Source: a phage
Direction: 5' to 3' (one strand)
Sequence record: PZ386974.1
Length of the DNA: 64,000 nt
In this document: in pieces, positions 3,159 to 63,802 of the stretch
Layout of the letters: the number at the start of each line of letters is the position of its first letter
How positions within the stretch are numbered: position 1 is the first letter of the stretch
Position numbers and translations under genes: made by a program
Notes under the pieces: generated by a model
Seen by the model: the letters and a program-made list of their open reading frames with translations, nothing else
Database searches by the model: none
Told to the model about the DNA's origin: nothing

Positions 3159-3299
3159 TCACCATATTAATGAACGAATAGCCATTATAACATCTGAAAT
3201 GAAAAGCACTACTTTGATTAGTCCAAACATCACACCATAGTACAGAACCGTAAGCAACAACAAGAGCCCGAAGGCTCCTGCTAAGATTTTCTTAATCAT
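3159..3299 (-). CDS. small hydrophobic peptide (46 aa), below track threshold
   Basis: ATG at 3299-3297; translation MIKKILAGAFGLLLLLTVLYYGV...; TAATG-coupled to upstream small ORF; position equivalent to T4 52.1/ac/stp region. Confidence 0.3.
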   Translation of the reverse strand: MIKKILAGAFGLLLLLTVLYYGVMFGLIKVVLFISDVIMAIRSLIW

Positions 3300-3445
3300 T
3301 ACTCGCCTTTTAATACGTTAAGAAGAGCTAAGACCGCTAAGGTACCTTGTGATACGGCCTGTTGAAATACTGTTGTTTCACCTGTAACTAAAGTGTTAAC
3401 GAATAAAAACGACCAACACAGCAATGCAATAATCCATGCTACCAT
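3299..3445 (-). CDS. small membrane peptide (48 aa), below track threshold
   Basis: ATG at 3445-3443; translation MVAWIIALLCWSFLFVNTLVTGETTVFQQ...; position equivalent to T4 ac/stp region. Confidence 0.3.
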   Translation of the reverse strand: MVAWIIALLCWSFLFVNTLVTGETTVFQQAVSQGTLAVLALLNVLKGE

Positions 3446-33884: not shown

Positions 33885-34286
33885 TTATAGGTTCGGTTTA
33901 TATGATTTAAATGTTTCGAATTCGCCTTTATTCATAAGAGCTTTGAATTCGTCGGGACGCATAGCTTTGTCGTCGATAATCCAATCATATACTGGTTTAT
34001 GTGTTAGCAAATTATGGTACTTCAAACCAATGTTTTCCAAGTTCTGAATCAGACTTGGGAGAATGTCAATTGCTATACGACCAGGACCTACTGACTTCAT
34101 ACCGCGAGCAGTGTAAAGCGTTATGGTATGCCCTGCATCATACAGGGCATTAATGGCAGACACCATTTCGACGTCTGGTTTGAAGTTCACGTAATCACGA
34201 TTGTTATTCCACTCTGTTATACAATCATCGACATCAAAATAAAGATTAAGCATGTTTTCTACACGGTGCATTAGATTCGTTCCCAT
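33885..34286 (-). CDS. HAD-superfamily phosphatase-like protein (133 aa)
   Basis: Motif I FDVDDCIT near N-terminus and DD motif DWIIDD near C-terminus. Confidence 0.5.
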   Translation of the reverse strand: MGTNLMHRVENMLNLYFDVDDCITEWNNNRDYVNFKPDVEMVSAINALYDAGHTITLYTARGMKSVGPGRIAIDILPSLIQNLENIGLKYHNLLTHKPVYDWIIDDKAMRPDEFKALMNKGEFETFKSYKPNL

Positions 34287-35956
34287 TGATGAGTGATATC
34301 GCCACCGATTGGACGGTAAGAAACACCAGTTTCTTTATCAGTTAGTACCCATTTACCAGGATTTTTTGTAATCAGAGTAGCCGTTACAGGTTCTGCTACG
34401 TCATAACTAATAGAGCCGTCTTGAAGTACACGGCCCATGTTACGTAATTGCTTAGTCAGAAGTTCCATACCTTTATAATATGCGGCTACCGCTTTAAGTG
34501 GATTATTCTTGAAATAACCACCTAATGCAATCCAGATAATTGCTACGGCCAAATGATGATACTCGTTAAACGAACTCAGCTTTCCATATTTGTAAATTAA
34601 TGGATTGATGTTAATAGTCACATTACAAGTTGTTTCGTCAATAGTAAACTGTCCCCAGGTCGGATTAGCGTTGAATTCATCATAACCTGAAACAGCATAA
34701 AGCACTTTAGCTTCATCATACAATTTTGGCCCGTAAATCTTGGTTTCACCAAAATATCCACGAGGGTCGATAAACTTGACTTCGCCGTTATCAGTAATCA
34801 TAGTATTACTGAAGTTCGGGTCACCATGAATAACAGAGTACTGTCCCTGAGAACGGTTATGATAACGAATAAGGTGTTCTAAAGCTTGTTTCAGCATTGG
34901 CTTCAGACGCCCAATCTTAGTGTAGTTCACATGGGTGATTTTACCAAATGAATCAATCAATGGTTGAATGCTTTCACAACGATCAATAACTTTCGTATAG
35001 AATTCTTTAGTGAAATCACGACGAACAGTTTCAGGACTTACAAAATAAGTGTCTGTGCTGAATTTCAGTGCATCTAAAATTGCATCAACAATTTGTGGAC
35101 GAGCAAGACTTGATTTGGATTTAATATATTCAAATGCCGGCTTACCTTTAATGCGTTCCATTTCAAAGTTATTTTCATTAACAGAAACTAACTGAGGAAC
35201 TGAATCTGATTTCACTTTAAGATACCATGAAATCTCATCTTTCTGAAGAGCTCGACCCTGTTCGGTTAATGCGAATTTAGTTACAGTTTCTTCACCAATT
35301 TCAACTGCATTAAAACTACGATTAAGTTCACGAACTTCATGAGCTTTTTCAAGTTTAGGCATATCACCTAAATCAATTAGATTCATAAGCTCTGATTTAT
35401 TGAATGCGCTGCCGTAAAGGAATTCTACGAAATCACGTCCTTTGCAGTATTCATGAATTTCCTCATCGGTAGAACCCATATAGAATTCCCAGTCTTTGAA
35501 CTGATAAATTCCTACAACATTACCACCTGTTGAACCTACGTTAGTGATATTTTCACCGTCGAAATTATATCGACATTCGTCACCCTTAACATAGATTGCG
35601 TTAACATTCCAAGACCATGAACCAAAATCGGGAATAATATCACACCAGTTAACAATTACATTATGGCCGTCTAAATCTTTGTGTAATTTAGCAAGAGCAT
35701 AAGCAGAACCATACGCTTCATCAACTGTGCGAATAGTCACATTGAACCCTTCTTGCTCACAATAAGCTCGAACAGTTTCAGCAAATTTTGAATGAACTAC
35801 TACAATAATTTCATCTGCGCCAAGGTCAGAATAAATTGTATACAAATTGCTCAGAATAGTGTCTTGTTTATAGTTAACAAGCACCTTAGGAATATGATGC
35901 GTTATTGGATATAAACGAGTCGCCAGTCCAGCACCAAGAATAACAGCTTTTTTCAT
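34271..35956 (-). CDS. bifunctional sugar-1-phosphate nucleotidyltransferase / APH-like sugar kinase
   Basis: N-terminus ILGAGLATRLYPIT (G-x-G-T-R-L NTase motif); C-terminal HGDPNFSNTMITDNGEVKFIDPRG (Brenner kinase motif). Confidence 0.7.
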   Translation of the reverse strand: MKKAVILGAGLATRLYPITHHIPKVLVNYKQDTILSNLYTIYSDLGADEIIVVVHSKFAETVRAYCEQEGFNVTIRTVDEAYGSAYALAKLHKDLDGHNVIVNWCDIIPDFGSWSWNVNAIYVKGDECRYNFDGENITNVGSTGGNVVGIYQFKDWEFYMGSTDEEIHEYCKGRDFVEFLYGSAFNKSELMNLIDLGDMPKLEKAHEVRELNRSFNAVEIGEETVTKFALTEQGRALQKDEISWYLKVKSDSVPQLVSVNENNFEMERIKGKPAFEYIKSKSSLARPQIVDAILDALKFSTDTYFVSPETVRRDFTKEFYTKVIDRCESIQPLIDSFGKITHVNYTKIGRLKPMLKQALEHLIRYHNRSQGQYSVIHGDPNFSNTMITDNGEVKFIDPRGYFGETKIYGPKLYDEAKVLYAVSGYDEFNANPTWGQFTIDETTCNVTININPLIYKYGKLSSFNEYHHLAVAIIWIALGGYFKNNPLKAVAAYYKGMELLTKQLRNMGRVLQDGSISYDVAEPVTATLITKNPGKWVLTDKETGVSYRPIGGDITHQWERI

Positions 35957-35997
35957 GTTGAAGTCCTCATTGGTAAGTAGGAGTATTGTACACTATT

Positions 35998-36141
35998 CTA
36001 GTTAAAGCATTCATACTTTGCTTGTAGTCCAATCATAATCCATCCAATTACAAGTGTTGGAATCATTACTGGAGCCGTTAAGCTCCAGTAGATAGTCATG
36101 ACAAGCATCAATAGTAAAAGTCCTATTGTTATTGCTTTCAT
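35998..36141 (-). CDS. small membrane peptide (47 aa), below track threshold
   Basis: ATGA-coupled to SIS gene stop; translation MKAITIGLLLLMLVMTIYWSLTAPVMIPTLVIGWIMIGL... Confidence 0.3.
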   Translation of the reverse strand: MKAITIGLLLLMLVMTIYWSLTAPVMIPTLVIGWIMIGLQAKYECFN

Positions 36142-36773
36142 TGTTCGCCTCGTAACATGGCACCTAGTGCACCGCCTGGATGGAACTTAAGGAAGTCATT
36201 AGAGGTAAATCCACGCTCAGACGAAAGGTTGATAGCGAACGTATCGATAAGCGCTAACAACAATGTAGTGGACATAGTCGGAGCTAAAGAGTTCTCGTCA
36301 ACTTCTACCGCGATACCGGTACAGAACGTATAATCAAAAAGAGCTTCGTATTCTTGTGGAATGTCAGGGTTACAATGTAACAGAATCTGTTTAACCTGAG
36401 GACGAATCATACGAAGATGTTTAGCAACACCTATCATTTCTTCAGTCTTACCAGAACGACTGATGTGAACTAATACATCATTAGGTGCAATAAATCCTGC
36501 GTCACCATGAGAATAATGCCCGGTGTTCAAGTACATACTCGGGATACCGAGTGAAGCAAATGTCTCAGAAGCTTTAGTTGCAATATTAGCATTCTTACCA
36601 ACACCTGTAATAATTACTCGGCTTTCATAATTACTAAGTCCTGGGCGTCGAAGAGTTTCTAGAATAGCATTATAACGAGCAGGGTTTTGACTAATTACTT
36701 TGGCCATAGCGGCCAAAGAAGAAGCTTGTTTTATGATTGCGTCAATAGCGATAGTAATAGGAGTAGTTTTCAT
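36138..36773 (-). CDS. SIS-domain sugar-phosphate isomerase (KdsD/GutQ-like arabinose-5-phosphate isomerase type)
   Basis: 211 aa; GVGKNANIA...HGDAG...SRSGKTEE...LAPTMSTT match SIS/API motifs. Confidence 0.7.
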   Translation of the reverse strand: MKTTPITIAIDAIIKQASSLAAMAKVISQNPARYNAILETLRRPGLSNYESRVIITGVGKNANIATKASETFASLGIPSMYLNTGHYSHGDAGFIAPNDVLVHISRSGKTEEMIGVAKHLRMIRPQVKQILLHCNPDIPQEYEALFDYTFCTGIAVEVDENSLAPTMSTTLLLALIDTFAINLSSERGFTSNDFLKFHPGGALGAMLRGEQ

Positions 36774-51145: not shown

Positions 51146-51616
51146 TTAATCATGTTTCCACACCCCATCGGTATTTGACCAAAGTCGCTGATTATCTGAT
51201 CCTCGCCACAGCTTTTTAGTCGGAAGATTTTTCTCATACTTCCCATCAATAATAACATCAACATATTTAAGCATTTCTAGTTGTTTAATATCTTCAAACT
51301 TATATCCTGTCCACAACCAAATGCTTTTATTGGGATAAAGATTTTTTACTGTTTGAACAATGCGATGAATAACATCTCGGTTATCAGGATAGAGAGGGTC
51401 TCCTCCGGTTATAGTTAATCCTTCTATATAATCATTATTCAAACATTCAATTAATTGTTCTAGTGTCTCTCCAGTGAATGGAACACCGTTTCTAGCATTC
51501 CATGTTGATTTATTATAACACCCTTCGCATTTATGCAAACAACCTGTGACGAAAAGAACGACCCTGCAACCAGGGCCATTCACAAAATCGCAAGGATAAA
51601 ATCTATCATAATTCAT
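51146..51616 (-). CDS. nrdG: anaerobic ribonucleotide reductase activating protein (radical SAM)
   Basis: 156 aa; N-terminal CDFVNGPGCRVVLFVTGCLHKCEGC; ATGA-coupled to nrdD. Confidence 0.85.
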   Translation of the reverse strand: MNYDRFYPCDFVNGPGCRVVLFVTGCLHKCEGCYNKSTWNARNGVPFTGETLEQLIECLNNDYIEGLTITGGDPLYPDNRDVIHRIVQTVKNLYPNKSIWLWTGYKFEDIKQLEMLKYVDVIIDGKYEKNLPTKKLWRGSDNQRLWSNTDGVWKHD

Positions 51617-53430
51617 TGGTGTTTAACCCTATGCATGATTTCTTTATTTTTGCCTAGATTAAATCCGCGTTCGTTCGGGTTTCCAAGATAACCACACGTT
51701 CTTCTTATTGTGTTCATCTTTTTAGGATCAGTTTCTCCACAAATAGAACAAACAAATCCGTTTTCAGTAGGAGTCATTTCATGGGTACTTCCACACGTAA
51801 AACATTTATCTACTGGCATATTAACACCAAAATAATCTAAATGTTGTGCAGCATAATCCCAGACAGCCTCAAGTCCCTTTAAATTGTTTTTCATATCTGG
51901 AAGTTCAACATAAGAAATGTGACCACCTGACGCAATGAAATGATATGGCGCTTCACGAGAAATCTTTTCAAACGGAGTAATATTTTCTTCTACTGAAACA
52001 TGGAAACTATTAGTGTACCAGCCTTTATCAGTGACATCCTTTACACTTCCATATTTTTCCGTGTCGAGTTTACAGAAACGATAACACAAGTTTTCAGCAG
52101 GAGTAGAATACAAGCTAAAAGCAAAACCGGTTCTTTCGGTCCACTGTTTAAGATGAGTATTCATTTTAGTTAAAATTTCTTGTCCAATATCACGACCGAC
52201 AAGAATATTCAATTCGTGAATACCAATGTATCCTAGGGACACTGAACTTCTACCGTTTTTAAATAACTCAATTATATCGTCATCAGGTTTAAGACGGACC
52301 CCGAATGCACCTTCTTGGTAAAGAATAGGAGCAACAGTCGCTTTAACCCCTTTTAAGGAACTAATTCTACACATCAAAGCTTCAAAACACAAATCCATTC
52401 GTTCATCGAACAATTCGGCAAATTTCTGTTCATTGAACTGTGTTCCAATATAAGAATCTAATGCGATACGAGGAAGATTCAGTGTTACAACACCGAGATT
52501 ATTACGTCCATCAAGAATTTCATTACCGGTCGAATCTTTCCATACGCTCAAGAAACTACGGCAACCCATTGGAGAAACAGGAACTGAAGAACCGGTAATA
52601 GCTTTATTATTCTTAACCGAAATAATATCAGGATACATTCTTTTGCTTGCGCACTCTAGAGCAAGCTGCTTAATATCATAGTTCGGATCATCTTTATAAA
52701 GATTAACACCTTCTTCAACAAACATAACAAGCTTAGGGAAAATAGGAGTTATTCCATCACGACCAAGACCTTTAATGCGGTTTTTAAGAATTGCCTTCTG
52801 AATCATTCGTTCAGTCCAATCGGTTCCCGTACCAAATGTAATTGTTACAAAAGGCGTTTGTCCGTTTGAACTAAAGAGAGTATTTACTTCATATTCATAA
52901 GCTTGGAATGCGTCATAGACATCTTTTTCTGTTTTGGATTGAGCATAATTCAACGCATCAGCGATTTGCCATTTTTCTGCATCTTCAATATGTTTTGCAT
53001 AGGTGCGTTTAACATAAGGAGAAAGTACTTTATCTACATTAGCAAAAGTCGTTCCGCCATACTGGTGAGAAGCAACTTGTGCGGTAATTTGTGCCATAAT
53101 TGCAGTAGCAACGCCAATAGATTTAGGCGTTTCAATTTGAGCATTGCCTAATTTAAATCCATTCTCAAGCATCCCATTTAAATCGACTAAACAGCAATTA
53201 GTAAATGGAAGAGCAGGAGAATAATCAATATCATGCATGTGAATGATTCCGCTTTCATGCGCATTCATAATAAAAGACGGGACCATATTTTTGGCAATGT
53301 GCTTAGACACAATACCAGCCATAAGGTCCCGTTGAGTTGGAAAAACACGAGAATCTTTATTAGCATTCTCGTTTAAAAGGTCTTTATTAGTTTTATGAAT
53401 TAATCCTTCAATTTCTTTTTCAATTTTCAT
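51613..53430 (-). CDS. nrdD: anaerobic ribonucleoside-triphosphate reductase, intact
   Basis: 605 aa; C-terminal zinc ribbon and glycyl-radical region (RTCGYLGNP); single uninterrupted ORF. Confidence 0.9.
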   Translation of the reverse strand: MKIEKEIEGLIHKTNKDLLNENANKDSRVFPTQRDLMAGIVSKHIAKNMVPSFIMNAHESGIIHMHDIDYSPALPFTNCCLVDLNGMLENGFKLGNAQIETPKSIGVATAIMAQITAQVASHQYGGTTFANVDKVLSPYVKRTYAKHIEDAEKWQIADALNYAQSKTEKDVYDAFQAYEYEVNTLFSSNGQTPFVTITFGTGTDWTERMIQKAILKNRIKGLGRDGITPIFPKLVMFVEEGVNLYKDDPNYDIKQLALECASKRMYPDIISVKNNKAITGSSVPVSPMGCRSFLSVWKDSTGNEILDGRNNLGVVTLNLPRIALDSYIGTQFNEQKFAELFDERMDLCFEALMCRISSLKGVKATVAPILYQEGAFGVRLKPDDDIIELFKNGRSSVSLGYIGIHELNILVGRDIGQEILTKMNTHLKQWTERTGFAFSLYSTPAENLCYRFCKLDTEKYGSVKDVTDKGWYTNSFHVSVEENITPFEKISREAPYHFIASGGHISYVELPDMKNNLKGLEAVWDYAAQHLDYFGVNMPVDKCFTCGSTHEMTPTENGFVCSICGETDPKKMNTIRRTCGYLGNPNERGFNLGKNKEIMHRVKHQ

Positions 53431-53900
53431 TTTAAACTCTTTCTAAGCTGCTTTTTGAATGAAGCTATTAATTGTGTTTTAGTGTCAGATTCATTATATT
53501 TAAATCCTCTTTGAAGCATCTCAGTCATCATTTCCTCTTTACCTAGTCTTGAGAACTCTTTAGTTTTGTCTGGAACAAAATTAGGATGGATATTATTATC
53601 AGAATAATCTTGTTTCAAATAAGCAAGAAGAGCTTCAAGCCATTCGAGGTAATCAACGTTTTGACCTTTAAGACCAGAACGGTTGAACTTATGCTTCATT
53701 TGACCTTCTGCTGCGTTGCACAGGTTACATAGTAAACCACGAACCTTACCTGCTTTTGGCCCGTTTAATTCATGGTCGTGGTCAAGATGGTTACCTTGAA
53801 CATCAGGGTCTAATTCACGGTGGCAAATAGGACACTTACCGTTCTGTGCATCATAAAATTTTTGTTTTTCTTCTTTATATTTTGCGCCTGATAATAACAT
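53427..53900 (-). CDS. 49: endonuclease VII (Holliday junction resolvase)
   Basis: 157 aa; CPICHRELD...H-N-H-like motifs; length equals T4 gp49. Confidence 0.85.
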   Translation of the reverse strand: MLLSGAKYKEEKQKFYDAQNGKCPICHRELDPDVQGNHLDHDHELNGPKAGKVRGLLCNLCNAAEGQMKHKFNRSGLKGQNVDYLEWLEALLAYLKQDYSDNNIHPNFVPDKTKEFSRLGKEEMMTEMLQRGFKYNESDTKTQLIASFKKQLRKSLK

Positions 53901-53935
53901 GATAAACCCTTACCTTAAATAGATAAGGGTATTTA

Positions 53936-54349
53936 TTAACTTAAACGTCTTTCTAAATATTCAATGTATTCTGCGGCTGCTTGCATCAGGTTACCTTCAT
54001 AGCCGTCGTTATTTTCTTGTCCGGCTAATTTAGCTAATGCATAAGAAATTCGTTCACCTTCGAATTCACCAAGTCCGCCATCACAAACTTCTTGGTCAAT
54101 TTCTTCGAGTTCATCTATTGAATGGGATTCCCAGAAGCACCAAAGAGAAGTATCACGGTCATAGATGCAAAGTTTCTCACCTGTGTTCAACATCACTTCG
54201 ATAATGCCATGGTCGCCATAACCATCTTCGGTAGTAGTACCAATTACCTTGATGATTGTTCCTTTCTTTAATTCAGGAAACTTGACTTGTAGTTCTTCAT
54301 CTTCTTTAACAATCTTGAACCATTTACCGCGAGTTTCAGAAATATTCAT
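53936..54349 (-). CDS. hypothetical acidic protein (137 aa)
   Basis: Track start extended through hydrophobic junk; ATG at 54349. Confidence 0.45.
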   Translation of the reverse strand: MNISETRGKWFKIVKEDEELQVKFPELKKGTIIKVIGTTTEDGYGDHGIIEVMLNTGEKLCIYDRDTSLWCFWESHSIDELEEIDQEVCDGGLGEFEGERISYALAKLAGQENNDGYEGNLMQAAAEYIEYLERRLS

Positions 54350-54350
54350 A

Positions 54351-54521
54351 TCAATATTCTCTATAAAAGTTACGATGAGAACGTTTAGCTTTGCGAAGCT
54401 GACGTTTAGTAGGACGAACTGTAAATGGTTGTCCAGAGAAAAAATTCGGATCGGTTTTAATAAGCAAATACCAATCATGCTTGCCATTTTTTAATAAACG
54501 GTACAATAATTTAACTTGCAT
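54351..54521 (-). CDS. hypothetical basic protein (56 aa)
   Basis: Track start is TTG; ATG at 54521 with GGAAGAG SD. Confidence 0.3.
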   Translation of the reverse strand: MQVKLLYRLLKNGKHDWYLLIKTDPNFFSGQPFTVRPTKRQLRKAKRSHRNFYREY

Positions 54522-54822
54522 AATAATCTCTTCCCATTTCCATATCAATTAATTCATTTATTGAAGGTTCATCATAACACGTTTCTTCGTCGTTGTAAAA
54601 TGTTTCGACGTCTGGCTCGACCGTCTCCCATCGAGCCGAATACCACGGTTTAACCGCGGAGCTTATTGAGCTCTTCATAATCAATCCAGGATTCTAGTCC
54701 GGATGGTAAAGCCGATTCAATTTCCCAAAGAAGCTCTTCAATTTTTTGAAGACGATCTAATTCTTCAACAGGAATAGTAACCATTGATGGAGCTCTTGCT
54801 GCACTAATATCGTAAATCATAT

Positions 54823-55038
54823 TTACCCCAGTTTAACCATGCAATCGCCGTATTTCCATTTAGAAATAGACTTTTCGCCATTAGAATAATAAACTTCGAG
54901 TTTAGCACGATTATTTTTAATTTGAATAACCTTGGCTGTCATCAAAGTTCCATACCCATAGTAAACTGCAACTTCATCACCTACATACACCGCGTTTCCA
55001 CGGTAGTCATGGATATAATCAGTTCCTTTAAGCATCAT
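54823..55038 (-). CDS. hypothetical protein (71 aa)
   Basis: ATG; ATGA-coupled to nrdC. Confidence 0.45.
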   Translation of the reverse strand: MMLKGTDYIHDYRGNAVYVGDEVAVYYGYGTLMTAKVIQIKNNRAKLEVYYSNGEKSISKWKYGDCMVKLG

Positions 55039-55298
55039 TTAAAATATTCCCGCAGTTGATCAAATCCACCGATCGAAGTTCCATCAGGAGCAAACACCTG
55101 AGGCATCGTCAACCCAACATGTGTTTCACGTCCTAGTTTATTCAGAAGCTCGTCAATTTTTTCTTCATCAAATACACCTTTCTCTGGCATCACGTTAATG
55201 AATTCGAACGGCTGTTTCTTAACAGTCAGCAATCGTTTCGCATTATCACAATAAATGCATTTATGAATAGTAGAGTCATACCCGTACACTTTAAACAT
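55035..55298 (-). CDS. nrdC: glutaredoxin/thioredoxin NrdC
   Basis: Start set to ATG at 55298 (MFKVYGYDSTIHKCIYCDNAKRLL...) giving 87 aa as recalled T4 NrdC; AAAGGA SD. Confidence 0.85.
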   Translation of the reverse strand: MFKVYGYDSTIHKCIYCDNAKRLLTVKKQPFEFINVMPEKGVFDEEKIDELLNKLGRETHVGLTMPQVFAPDGTSIGGFDQLREYFK

Positions 55299-63515: not shown

Positions 63516-63695
63516 TTATTCACCAATTAAAGTTTCAACAAAATTCACCAAAGCATTCTGGCAAGCGTCAACCTGATTTTCATAAAAGTCTCCGTTATCA
63601 TTTACCGCATGATAAGCTACATCATTCAAATCTGAATCGGCTTCACGTAAGTCATGGATAAGGTCCATCAATTTATTAGCTTGTTCACGGGTCAT
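63516..63695 (-). CDS. hypothetical acidic protein (59 aa), below track threshold
   Basis: Translation MTREQANKLMDLIHDLREADSDL...; ATGA-coupled to upstream 36-codon ORF. Confidence 0.3.
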   Translation of the reverse strand: MTREQANKLMDLIHDLREADSDLNDVAYHAVNDNGDFYENQVDACQNALVNFVETLIGE

Positions 63696-63802
63696 TTTAC
63701 CATACTCGTTTCAATAAGATTCACTATGCCGTTTACCATGTTATAAGTAAACATCGGATAATTGTATTGTACTACAACATAAGCGATAAGCAAAAGTTTC
63801 AT
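63692..63802 (-). CDS. small hydrophobic peptide (36 aa), below track threshold
   Basis: ATG with GGAGAA SD directly downstream of promoter cassette. Confidence 0.25.
   Translation of the reverse strand: MKLLLIAYVVVQYNYPMFTYNMVNGIVNLIETSMVK

What the first reader, a model, noticed from the sequence alone, without database searches (positions are those of the whole stretch)
54351..54820. Chain of overlapping sub-60-aa ORFs in an apparent gap between the 49-proximal ORF and nrdC
The 270 nt that look non-coding in the track contain two overlapping ATG-initiated ORFs: 54650..54820 (56 aa, MIYDISAARAPSMVTIPVEELDRLQKIEELLWEIES...) and 54511..54678 (55 aa, acidic). They are followed by a 56-aa basic ORF at 54351..54521. 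Similar coupled micro-ORFs occur at 3159..3445, 35998..36141 and 63516..63802.
Basis: seen in the sequence. Interest (0 to 1): 0.35.

Follow-up and report, generated by a model that had tools for sequence, protein, structure and literature searches.

The report
Three small conserved phage genes
The apparent gap between the Lon-protease-inhibitor gene and nrdC of this T4-like phage holds three real, conserved small genes, one of them a 91%-identical homologue of a phage T6 protein shown in 2026 to switch off the bacterial OLD defence, so the finding is correct but already known.

Summary
On the minus strand, three ATG-initiated ORFs tile 54351-54820: A (54650-54820, 56 aa, acidic), B (54511-54678, 55 aa, acidic) and C (54351-54521, 56 aa, basic). 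A and B overlap by 29 nt and B and C by 11 nt. C stops 1 nt before pinA.

All three are real genes:
- Each scores best in its own frame.
- Each is under purifying selection (dN/dS about 0.03-0.4).
- Each matches a PHROG family over its full length.
- Each is annotated as a CDS in at least some related Mosigvirus genomes, and the overlap geometry is the same in all nine loci that share this gene order.

Identities:
- ORF A is the homologue (51/56 identical; M13, T15 and W32 conserved) of phage T6 "Gp49.2". That protein was shown experimentally (Nat Commun 2026, PMC13096335) to inhibit the P2 OLD anti-phage nuclease.
- ORF B is the homologue of T4 gp49.1. Its function is unknown, and the T6 homologue had no effect on OLD.
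- ORF C belongs to Pfam DUF7279, function unknown.

The PHROG label "antitoxin" and a weak T7 gp5.9 resemblance are not supported.

Verdict: ordinary, tightly packed T-even early genes that gene callers annotate inconsistently. This is already known and of low interest, apart from the anti-OLD assignment.

The parts
54650..54820 (-). ORF A: 56-aa acidic protein, homologue of phage T6 'Gp49.2', an OLD inhibitor. Belongs to phrog_3402. M13, T15 and W32 are conserved.
   Evidence: - Family: phrog_3402, E 9.6e-39, full length.
- Homology: 91% identity to T6 BBF63505.1 in its 56-aa form. The paper's cloning primers match that gene.
- Selection: dN/dS 0.03-0.36.
- Translation start: strong SD, -6.0 kcal/mol.
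- Annotated in moskry, LH01, pEB20, mobillu, T2, PP01 and Mineola.
54511..54678 (-). ORF B: 55-aa acidic protein, homologue of T4 gp49.1. Function unknown.
   Evidence: - Family: phrog_2382, E 7.3e-28. Homologues carry a precomputed Pfam PF26863.
- Distribution: 971 phage records, including T4 at 63% identity.
- Annotated as 49.1 in PP01, T2 and Mineola.
- Selection: pS 0.59 vs pN 0.22 against T4, p = 3e-4.
- Translation start: weak SD, -3.1 kcal/mol.
- Structure: AF2 model mostly low confidence, with one C-terminal helix.
54351..54521 (-). ORF C: 56-aa basic protein of Pfam DUF7279 / phrog_3272. Function unknown.
   Evidence: - Family: PF23945, E 1.1e-14, 54.5 bits against a cutoff of 24.5. 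phrog_3272, E 5.8e-27.
- Distribution: 223 phage records, mostly Mosigvirus.
- Selection: pS 0.43 vs pN 0.06 against mobillu, p = 6e-7.
- Annotated in moskry, pEB20, mobillu, RPN187 and O157 typing phage 6.
54650..54678 (-). 29-nt overlap. The C-terminus of ORF A (DYEELNKLRG*) and the N-terminus of ORF B (MKSSISSAV) are read in two frames.
   Evidence: The same -29 junction is present in the window, all eight fetched Mosigvirus loci and T6.
54511..54521 (-). 11-nt overlap between the end of ORF B and the start of ORF C.
   Evidence: The same -11 junction is present in the window and all eight fetched Mosigvirus loci.
54823..55038 (-). 71-aa ORF (X71), the upstream neighbour in the chain. It is the homologue of T6 'Gp49.3'. 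Carries DUF7205 and belongs to phrog_2112.
   Evidence: Family matches. T6 EcT6_00081 is 97% identical, and the paper's primers match it. It overlaps nrdC by 4 nt (ATGA).
53936..54349 (-). pinA, the inhibitor of host Lon protease (137 aa). It is the downstream neighbour; its ATG lies 1 nt after the ORF C stop.
   Evidence: PF10465, E 1.1e-48. phrog_2167. Weak SD of -2.9 kcal/mol.
55035..55298 (-). nrdC (glutaredoxin/thioredoxin, 87 aa), the upstream landmark of the chain.
   Evidence: ORF. 87-94% identical to nrdC annotated in relatives.

Best explanation
The 470-nt stretch is coding. It carries three consecutive small genes on the minus strand, within an uninterrupted, tightly packed run: nrdC, the 71-aa ORF, A, B, C, pinA, gene 49. 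The phage is a T4-like Mosigvirus (RB69-like).

Junctions and translation (inferred). The junctions are ATGA, +2, -29, -11 and +1 nt, and no terminator lies inside the run. The genes are therefore most likely translated from one polycistronic early mRNA. ORF A and ORF C have their own usable Shine-Dalgarno sites. ORF B and pinA have weak ones, so they probably depend partly on ribosomes arriving from the upstream gene.

ORF A. It is the homologue of phage T6 'Gp49.2', a 56-aa acidic protein. Expressed from a plasmid, Gp49.2 abolishes defence by the P2 OLD protein, an ABC-ATPase/TOPRIM abortive-infection nuclease. This was shown for the T6 protein and is inferred for this one. The T6 authors predict that Gp49.2 binds the OLD ATPase domain through M13, T15 and W32. 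All three residues are present here.

ORF B. It is the homologue of T4 gp49.1, an acidic, probably largely disordered peptide. In other T4-like genera it is always placed immediately upstream of pinA and overlaps it. Its function is unknown, and the T6 homologue did not affect OLD.

ORF C. It is a basic DUF7279 protein of unknown function, inserted between gp49.1 and pinA in Mosigviruses.
For: Coding status:
- The own frame scores best of six for all three ORFs.
- Pairwise dN/dS is 0.03-0.4, like the neighbours pinA and nrdC. pS exceeds pN with p from 7e-3 down to 6e-7, while the alternative frames show pS at or below about pN in nearly all comparisons.
- There are full-length PHROG matches, and a Pfam DUF7279 match above the curated cutoff.
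- tblastn finds the ORFs in 832, 971 and 223 phage records.
- ORFs and junction geometry are intact in every fetched relative.
- CDS annotations exist in relatives.

ORF A as the T6 Gp49.2 homologue:
- T6 EcT6_00080 / BBF63505.1 contains MIYDISVSRTPSMVTIPAEELDRLQKIEELLWEIESDLPSGLESWIDYEELNKLRG, 51/56 identical to ORF A.
- The paper's cloning primers for 'gp49.2' encode MIYDISVSRT... and ...YEELNKLRG*. BBF63505.1 is listed among the Gp49.2 homologues.
- The primers for 'gp49.1' and 'gp49.3' match the T6 homologues of ORF B and X71.
- The paper reports that Gp49.2 abolishes OLD defence and that M13A and the triple mutant lose activity. [quoted passage not shown]
- The family is confined to T4-like phages: 7 representatives among 1.8 billion proteins, in line with the paper's statement.

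Operon and coupling:
- No terminator-like site lies on the minus strand, and promoter-like matches are at chance level.
- SD:anti-SD energies are A -6.0, C -4.2, B -3.1 and pinA -2.9 kcal/mol, against a median of -5.6 for long-ORF starts.
Against: - No expression data (transcripts, ribosome footprints or peptides) were available for this phage, so translation and coupling are inferred.
- The anti-OLD activity was shown only for the T6 protein expressed from a plasmid.
- Wild-type T6 and T2 carry the gene yet are still restricted by OLD unless the locus is amplified or the protein is over-expressed. The native single copy may therefore give little protection.
- The binding mode rests on an AlphaFold3 model of medium confidence (ipTM 0.55, reported).
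- My AF2 monomer of ORF A is only moderately confident (pLDDT 74, two helices) and has no significant fold match.
- ORF A differs from the T6 protein at 5 positions (7, 8, 10, 18, 37).
- ORF B and ORF C have no functional evidence at all.
Confidence: 0.85

Rival explanations
1. The stretch is a non-coding spacer and the ORFs are chance open frames.
For: The ORFs are short (55-56 aa). About 57 ATG ORFs of 55 aa or longer are expected by chance in 64 kb over six frames. Some GenBank relatives leave one of them unannotated.
Against: - Three same-strand ORFs tiling 470 nt is expected in 0.03% of random stretches.
- There is significant purifying selection in exactly these frames.
- There are full-length family matches.
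- The ORFs are conserved across hundreds of phages, down to 50-60% identity.
Confidence: 0.02
2. ORF A is a T7 gp5.9-like DNA mimic that inhibits RecBCD.
For: - There are weak hits to Pfam Phage_T7_Gp5_9 (E 0.0014, 18.9 bits) and to phrog_6234 'host RecBCD nuclease inhibitor' (E 0.0017), both over residues 12-35.
- ORF A has similar size and acidity (pI 4.2 vs 4.0) and the shared motif VTIP followed by a helix.
Against: - The Pfam score is below the curated cutoff of 24.5.
- hhalign of the ORF A family against gp5.9 gives probability 1.3% over 15 columns.
- The family profile does not retrieve gp5.9 from the PDB even at E = 10.
- The exhaustive search finds no gp5.9-type proteins.
- The helix is broken by the invariant PSGLESW segment, so there is no long coiled coil.
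- RecBCD inhibitors activate OLD, whereas the T6 homologue inhibits OLD defence.
Confidence: 0.03
3. ORF A is the antitoxin of a toxin-antitoxin system, as the PHROG/Pharokka label says.
For: phrog_3402 is labelled 'antitoxin from a toxin-antitoxin system', and many GenBank records copy this label. The T6 paper reports a weak HHpred similarity to RelB3 (probability 79%, E 8.8).
Against: - No antitoxin family was found in Pfam or NCBIfam even at E = 1.
- No toxin-like partner is adjacent; the neighbours are X71 and gp49.1.
- The reported HHpred hit is not significant.
- The only experimental activity of the family is OLD inhibition.
Confidence: 0.04
4. ORF C is not a gene. Instead PinA starts at the upstream ATG (54487), giving a 183-aa protein, as annotated in phage LH01.
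For: The open frame 53936..54487 exists. LH01 annotates the equivalent 183-aa 'inhibitor of host Lon protease' and no ORF C.
Against: - The PinA Pfam domain starts at residue 53 of the long form, and the extension matches nothing.
- That ATG has no SD (+0.9 kcal/mol).
- In 54350-54487 the ORF C frame has the better codon score (0.31 vs 0.06).
- The ORF C frame shows pS 0.43 vs pN 0.06, while the other frames show the opposite.
- ORF C matches DUF7279 above the cutoff.
Confidence: 0.03
5. ORF B is conserved at the DNA level only, for example as a regulatory or coupling spacer in front of pinA, and is not made as a stable protein.
For: - Its SD is weak (-3.1 kcal/mol).
- The AF2 model is low confidence and mostly unstructured (pLDDT 65).
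- It has no known function and no effect on OLD.
- It is often skipped by gene callers.
Against: - Amino-acid-level constraint is seen across genera. KPWY.AR, EP, E, Y, P, N, ID, E and G are invariant in the homologue alignment, with nearly invariant ETV and CYDE.
- pS is significantly above pN against distant relatives, at p of about 1e-4.
- It matches phrog_2382 over its full length.
Confidence: 0.06

Closest known systems
Phage T6 'Gp49.2' (BBF63505.1 / EcT6_00080), inhibitor of the P2 OLD defence nuclease (Nat Commun 2026, PMC13096335)
   Same: - ORF A is 51/56 identical and the same length.
- M13, T15 and W32 are all present.
- The neighbours are the same: X71 ('Gp49.3') upstream, and gp49.1 downstream with an identical 29-nt overlap.
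   Different: - There are five substitutions, at positions 7, 8, 10, 18 and 37.
- The host genome is a Mosigvirus, not a Tequatrovirus.
- Activity was not tested for this protein.
- The name clashes with T4's own gp49.2, a 106-aa protein of phrog_2294 that is unrelated.
Phage T4 gp49.1 (phrog_2382; Pfam PF26863 on homologues)
   Same: ORF B is 63% identical to the T4 protein. It shares the conserved core KPWYSARWETVEP...CYDEP..NELID and lies on the same strand between nrdC and pin.
   Different: - In T4, T2, T6 and the Klebsiella phages, gp49.1 overlaps the pin start by 11-32 nt. Here ORF C is inserted between them.
- The first 9 residues of ORF B are read from the same DNA as the conserved C-terminus of ORF A.
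Pfam DUF7279 (PF23945) / phrog_3272
   Same: ORF C matches the whole 53-position profile at 54.5 bits.
   Different: The family has no known function. The Tequatrovirus relatives (about 43% identity) sit on the other side of pin, and LH01 has both copies.
T7 gp5.9, a RecBCD-inhibiting DNA mimic (PDB 8B1R)
   Same: Both are small acidic phage proteins. Both have an N-terminal short strand motif (VTIP) followed by an amphipathic helix.
   Different: The two are not detectably homologous. ORF A has a helix-loop-helix with the invariant PSGLESW loop rather than a long coiled coil. The expected relation to OLD is opposite.
Oad2 of phage HK446, another anti-OLD protein (bioRxiv 10.64898/2026.07.10.737580)
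   Same: It is a functional analogue: a phage-encoded inhibitor of P2 OLD.
   Different: It comes from a lambdoid phage and is encoded in the recombination locus.

Membership tests
T6 Gp49.2-type OLD inhibitor (phrog_3402) | Full-length sequence homology to the characterised T6 protein | tested here: met
   91% identity over 56/56 residues, E 6e-37. phrog_3402, E 9.6e-39 over 1-56/56.
T6 Gp49.2-type OLD inhibitor (phrog_3402) | Residues M13, T15 and W32 of the predicted OLD-binding surface (M13 critical in mutagenesis) | tested here: met
   All three are present in ORF A. The mutagenesis results are reported.
T6 Gp49.2-type OLD inhibitor (phrog_3402) | Genomic position between the X71/'Gp49.3' gene and gp49.1, in the nrdC-pin interval | tested here: met
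   Order and junctions are identical to T6.
T6 Gp49.2-type OLD inhibitor (phrog_3402) | Abolishes P2 OLD defence when expressed; binds OLD | not testable with these tools
   This needs a plaque assay on OLD-expressing E. coli and a pull-down. It has been shown only for the T6 protein.
T4 gp49.1 family (phrog_2382 / PF26863) | Sequence match to the family profile and to T4/T2/T6 gp49.1 | tested here: met
   phrog_2382, E 7.3e-28. 62-66% identity to T4, T2 and T6 49.1. Homologues carry PF26863. The local Pfam copy gave no hit.
T4 gp49.1 family (phrog_2382 / PF26863) | Lies immediately upstream of pin and overlaps it | tested here: not met
   Here, and in all the Mosigvirus loci, ORF C separates it from pin. 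The overlap (-11) is with ORF C instead. This is a synteny habit of the family rather than a sequence criterion.
Pfam DUF7279 (PF23945) | Score above the curated gathering threshold | tested here: met
   54.5 bits against a cutoff of 24.5, E 1.1e-14, profile positions 1-53/53. Homologues P0033 and P0034 carry PF23945.
T7 gp5.9 RecBCD inhibitor (PF25708) | Score above the curated gathering threshold, or profile-level homology | tested here: not met
   18.9 bits against a cutoff of 24.5. hhalign probability 1.3%. Not retrieved from the PDB by the family profile.
Toxin-antitoxin antitoxin (RelB/ParD-like), the PHROG label | Match to an antitoxin family, plus an adjacent cognate toxin gene | tested here: not met
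   No antitoxin family in Pfam or NCBIfam at E up to 1. The neighbours are X71 and gp49.1, neither toxin-like.

The most novel reading that the evidence does not exclude
The nrdC-pin interval may be a small, fast-changing anti-defence islet. In that reading, ORF B (gp49.1) and ORF C (DUF7279) are themselves inhibitors of other host defence or proteolysis systems.

Two observations fit this. gp49.1 is almost universally attached to the start of pinA, so it could be a partner or modulator of the Lon inhibitor. The DUF7279 gene hops from one side of pin to the other.
Probability: 0.2. Interest if true: 0.5.

Novelty: already known. Interest (0 to 1): 0.2.

Why it matters
The value is mainly for annotation. 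Gene callers treat this stretch inconsistently: ORF B is often skipped, ORF C is sometimes swallowed by an over-extended PinA, and ORF A is called at 44, 56, 64 or 69 aa. The automatic label for ORF A ('antitoxin') is misleading. The correct reading is that ORF A is a close homologue of an experimentally shown OLD inhibitor. The name 'Gp49.2' used for it collides with the unrelated T4 gp49.2.

The result also shows that Mosigviruses carry the anti-OLD gene. It points to gp49.1 and DUF7279 as untested neighbours in a locus that T6 amplifies under defence pressure.

Tried and rejected
- **Fold search.** The ORF A AF2 model (pLDDT 74) searched against the PDB gave nothing significant (best E 4.3).
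- **Sequence searches of the PDB.** Searches with ORF A, its family profile, ORF C and the ORF B profile gave only chance-level hits such as GINS PSF1 and nylon hydrolase.
- **gp5.9 lead.** The sequence I recalled from memory was verified against 8B1R, then rejected by hhalign.
- **NCBIfam and PADLOC scans.** No hit for ORFs A, B or C. X71 gave only two chance-level NCBIfam matches (16S rRNA methyltransferase, E 0.07, about 13 bits against cutoffs above 210) and nothing in PADLOC.
- **Word-indexed homologue searches.** These returned only close relatives: 26, 2 and 9 clusters. The exhaustive search for ORF A added only 4 genuinely divergent representatives and two repetitive false positives.
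- **IMG/VR scan for ORF B.** Only 7 loci were found.
- **AF2 of ORF B.** The model was too uncertain to use (pLDDT 65).
- **Paralogues in the window.** A search for paralogues of A, B and C, and for the ORF C C-terminal basic motif, found none.
- **Promoter and terminator scan.** Promoter-like matches were at chance level, and no terminator-like site lies on the coding (minus) strand.
- **Literature searches.** Searches for DUF7279, PF26863, DUF7205, RB69ORF091c and for T4 49.1/49.2 found nothing beyond the T6 paper.
- **An invalid comparison.** An ungapped ORF B comparison with T6 is invalid because of an indel and was disregarded.

Full report
**What is there.** The window is a T4-like phage genome segment, 37% G+C, with nearly all long ORFs on the minus strand. 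It is about 98% identical to many Mosigvirus (RB69-like) isolates but identical to none in the phage collection. Around the finding, the minus strand reads as follows:

| Feature | Coordinates | Size / note |
|---|---|---|
| nrdD | 51613-53430 | |
| gene 49 (endonuclease VII) | 53427-53900 | |
| pinA | 53936-54349 | PF10465, E 1e-48 |
| ORF C | 54351-54521 | 56 aa, pI 10.8 |
| ORF B | 54511-54678 | 55 aa, pI 4.05 |
| ORF A | 54650-54820 | 56 aa, pI 4.2 |
| X71 | 54823-55038 | 71 aa |
| nrdC | 55035-55298 | |

A and B overlap by 29 nt, B and C by 11 nt, and the C stop lies 1 nt before the pinA ATG.

**Is it more than chance?** Yes.
- In first-order Markov sequence with the window's composition, only 0.03% of 560-nt stretches hold three or more same-strand ATG ORFs of 55 aa or longer.
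- A codon-usage log-odds score trained on the window's 49 long ORFs is highest in each ORF's own frame among all six frames. The scores are A 0.39, B 0.08 and C 0.28. All other frames score at or below -0.2, and the known neighbours nrdC and pinA score 0.31 and 0.57.

**Conservation.**
- tblastn finds ORF A in 832 phage records, ORF B in 971 (including T4 itself at 63% identity) and ORF C in 223, mostly Mosigvirus.
- In the 18 fetched loci, every ORF that has a homologue there is intact.
- The -29 / -11 / +1 junctions are the same in the window and all eight fetched Mosigvirus loci. T6 has the same -29 A/B junction and then a -17 B/pin junction.
- Differences fall mainly on third codon positions. 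Pairwise dN/dS is 0.03-0.36 for A. For B and C it is mostly 0.1-0.4; the higher values come only from pairs with fewer than about 7 differences or from the 43%-identical PP01 relative of C. The range matches that of pinA and nrdC.
- pS exceeds pN significantly: for example A vs Klebsiella phage Mineola p = 1e-5, B vs T4 p = 3e-4, C vs mobillu p = 6e-7. Reading the same alignments in the other two frames gives pS at or below about pN in nearly all comparisons.

**They are already described families.**
- Family matches: ORF A matches phrog_3402 over 1-56/56 (E 1e-38). ORF B matches phrog_2382 (E 7e-28). ORF C matches phrog_3272 (E 6e-27) and Pfam DUF7279 at 54.5 bits against a cutoff of 24.5. 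Homologues of ORF B carry a precomputed PF26863.
- Annotation in relatives is uneven:

| Phage | What is annotated |
|---|---|
| mobillu, RPN187 | all three ORFs |
| moskry, pEB20, O157 typing phage 6 | A and C only; B omitted |
| LH01 | A and B; PinA extended over ORF C |

- ORF A is called at 44, 56, 64 or 69 aa by different pipelines.
- In T2 the ORF A homologue is noted as 'similar to RB69ORF091c'. The ORF B homologue is gene 49.1.

**Function of ORF A.** The only paper in the library containing 'gp49.1' is a 2026 Nature Communications study, PMC13096335.
- Phage T6 escapes the P2 OLD defence by SegB-dependent amplification of the gp49.1-nrdC.1 locus.
- Of five genes tested from plasmids, only 'Gp49.2' abolished OLD defence. 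[quoted passage not shown]
- The M13A mutant and the M13A/T15A/W32A triple mutant lost activity.
- AlphaFold3 (ipTM 0.55) placed Gp49.2 on the Walker A/B region of the OLD ATPase domain.

M13, T15 and W32 do not exist in T4's 106-aa gp49.2, but they fit ORF A exactly.
- In the T6 record AP018814.1 the genes between pin and nrdC are a 55-aa gp49.1, then EcT6_00080, then a 71-aa gene.
- EcT6_00080 contains MIYDISVSRTPSMVTIPAEELDRLQKIEELLWEIESDLPSGLESWIDYEELNKLRG.
- The paper's cloning primers for 'gp49.2' encode exactly this 56-aa protein, and its homologue table lists BBF63505.1.
- The 'gp49.1' and 'gp49.3' primers match the T6 homologues of ORF B and X71.
- ORF A is 51/56 identical to the T6 protein, with all three named residues conserved.

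ORF A is therefore a homologue of an experimentally shown OLD inhibitor. An exhaustive profile search of 1.8 billion representative proteins found only 7 clusters. Five are small phage-type proteins or fusions, and two are repetitive artefacts. This agrees with the paper's statement that the family is confined to Straboviridae.

**Structure of ORF A.** The alignment shows an invariant core, EE..RL..IEELLW.IE..LPSGLESW...E.L.KLR. AF2 gives two helices (18-37 and 48-55) joined by the PSGLESW segment, at moderate confidence (pLDDT 74). In a sister Mosigvirus lineage, this core (residues 13-56) is the C-terminal domain of a 105-129-aa protein that replaces X71 plus ORF A.

**Caveats on the anti-OLD reading.**
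- The activity was shown only with plasmid expression.
- T6 and T2 carry the gene but are still restricted by OLD unless it is amplified or over-expressed.
- The binding mode is a medium-confidence prediction.
- Nothing was measured for this phage's protein.

**Rejected labels for ORF A.**
- The PHROG text 'antitoxin from a toxin-antitoxin system' is copied into many GenBank records. Pfam and NCBIfam give no antitoxin support even at E = 1, and no toxin gene is adjacent. The T6 paper reports only a non-significant HHpred similarity to RelB3.
- A weak resemblance to T7 gp5.9 (Pfam 18.9 bits against a cutoff of 24.5; phrog_6234, E 0.0017) fails at profile level. hhalign gives a probability of 1.3%, and the family profile does not retrieve gp5.9 from the PDB.
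- The gp5.9 reading also points the wrong way biologically. RecBCD inhibitors trigger OLD, whereas the T6 homologue suppresses OLD defence.

**ORF B and ORF C.**
- ORF B is the gp49.1 homologue. Its core KPWYSARWETVEP...CYDEP..NELID is conserved across Tequatrovirus, Mosigvirus, Klebsiella phages and IMG/VR contigs.
- Outside Mosigvirus it always overlaps the pin start by 11-32 nt.
- AF2 sees only a C-terminal helix, at low confidence, which is consistent with an acidic peptide that folds on a partner.
- Its first nine codons are read from the same DNA as the highly conserved C-terminus of ORF A.
- ORF C is a basic DUF7279 protein with a C-terminal RPTKRQLRKAKRSHRNFY tail.
- Its Tequatrovirus relatives (43% identity) lie on the other side of pin, and LH01 has both copies. 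It therefore behaves as a movable small cassette.
- Neither protein has a solved-structure relative, a defence-database hit or a paralogue in the window.
- Their functions remain unknown. The T6 gp49.1 did not affect OLD.

**How the chain is probably expressed (inferred).** No terminator-like site lies on the minus strand between nrdC and gene 49, and promoter-like matches are at the chance level. Shine-Dalgarno pairing energies compare as follows:

| Start | SD:anti-SD energy (kcal/mol) |
|---|---|
| ORF A | -6.0 |
| ORF C | -4.2 |
| ORF B | -3.1 |
| pinA | -2.9 |
| Median, long-ORF starts | -5.6 |
| Median, all ATGs | -1.5 |

Together with the conserved overlaps, this fits partial translational coupling of B to A and of pinA to C. 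It has not been demonstrated.

**Verdict.** The observation and its interpretation are right. The feature is ordinary for T-even phages: densely packed, overlapping small early genes. All three genes belong to known families, with identical or near-identical proteins already in the databases. The one informative result is that ORF A is a close homologue of the published anti-OLD protein. Interest is low and the novelty rating is 'already known'.

Noticed in passing
window 53906-53930 (minus strand), just upstream of the gene 49 ATG at 53900: A 10-bp hairpin (ACCCUUAUCU / AGGUAAGGGU, 5-nt loop) contains the Shine-Dalgarno sequence of gene 49 in its 3' arm. It resembles the translational control described for T4 gene 49 (from my own knowledge of Barth et al. 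1988, not checked here).
   Followed up: partly
window 53936-54487 (minus strand): A 183-aa open frame extends PinA 46 residues upstream and overlaps ORF C out of frame. Phage LH01 annotates this long form and omits ORF C. Domain limits, the absent SD, codon scores and the substitution pattern all favour the short PinA plus ORF C.
   Followed up: yes
window 34271-36773 (minus strand): A 561-aa nucleotidyltransferase/kinase-like ORF and a 211-aa ORF flank a 47-aa hydrophobic micro-ORF (35998-36141). Some relatives annotate the matching 20-kb region as 'putative enzyme involved in UDP-arabinose biosynthesis'. That would be the RB69-type arabinosyl-hydroxymethylcytosine pathway.
   Followed up: no
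The ORFs at 3159-3299, 3299-3445 and 35998-36141 are hydrophobic, membrane-like peptides. The ORF at 63516-63695 matches phrog_4859, labelled 'helicase loader'.
   Followed up: partly
L007 873-1229; L016 1112-1468; L017 855-1172: In a sister Mosigvirus lineage the ORF A core (residues 13-56) is fused as the C-terminal domain of a 105-118-aa protein. That protein occupies the place of the 71-aa gene plus ORF A. The T6 paper's table lists 129-aa versions as well.
   Followed up: partly
L005 2095-2271 (PP01_083); L002 2895-3074 (lh_086): Distant relatives of ORF C (36-43% identity) lie between pin and gene 49 in Tequatrovirus PP01. LH01 carries copies on both sides of pin. The small DUF7279 gene has therefore moved or duplicated around pin.
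   Followed up: partly
T6 record AP018814.1 (L018) 2054-2581: The T6 GenBank record labels the gp49.1, anti-OLD and 71-aa genes as 'baseplate wedge subunit', 'baseplate wedge tail fiber connector' and 'baseplate wedge subunit and tail pin'. These are clearly propagated mis-annotations. The published name 'Gp49.2' also collides with the unrelated 106-aa gp49.2 of T4.
   Followed up: yes
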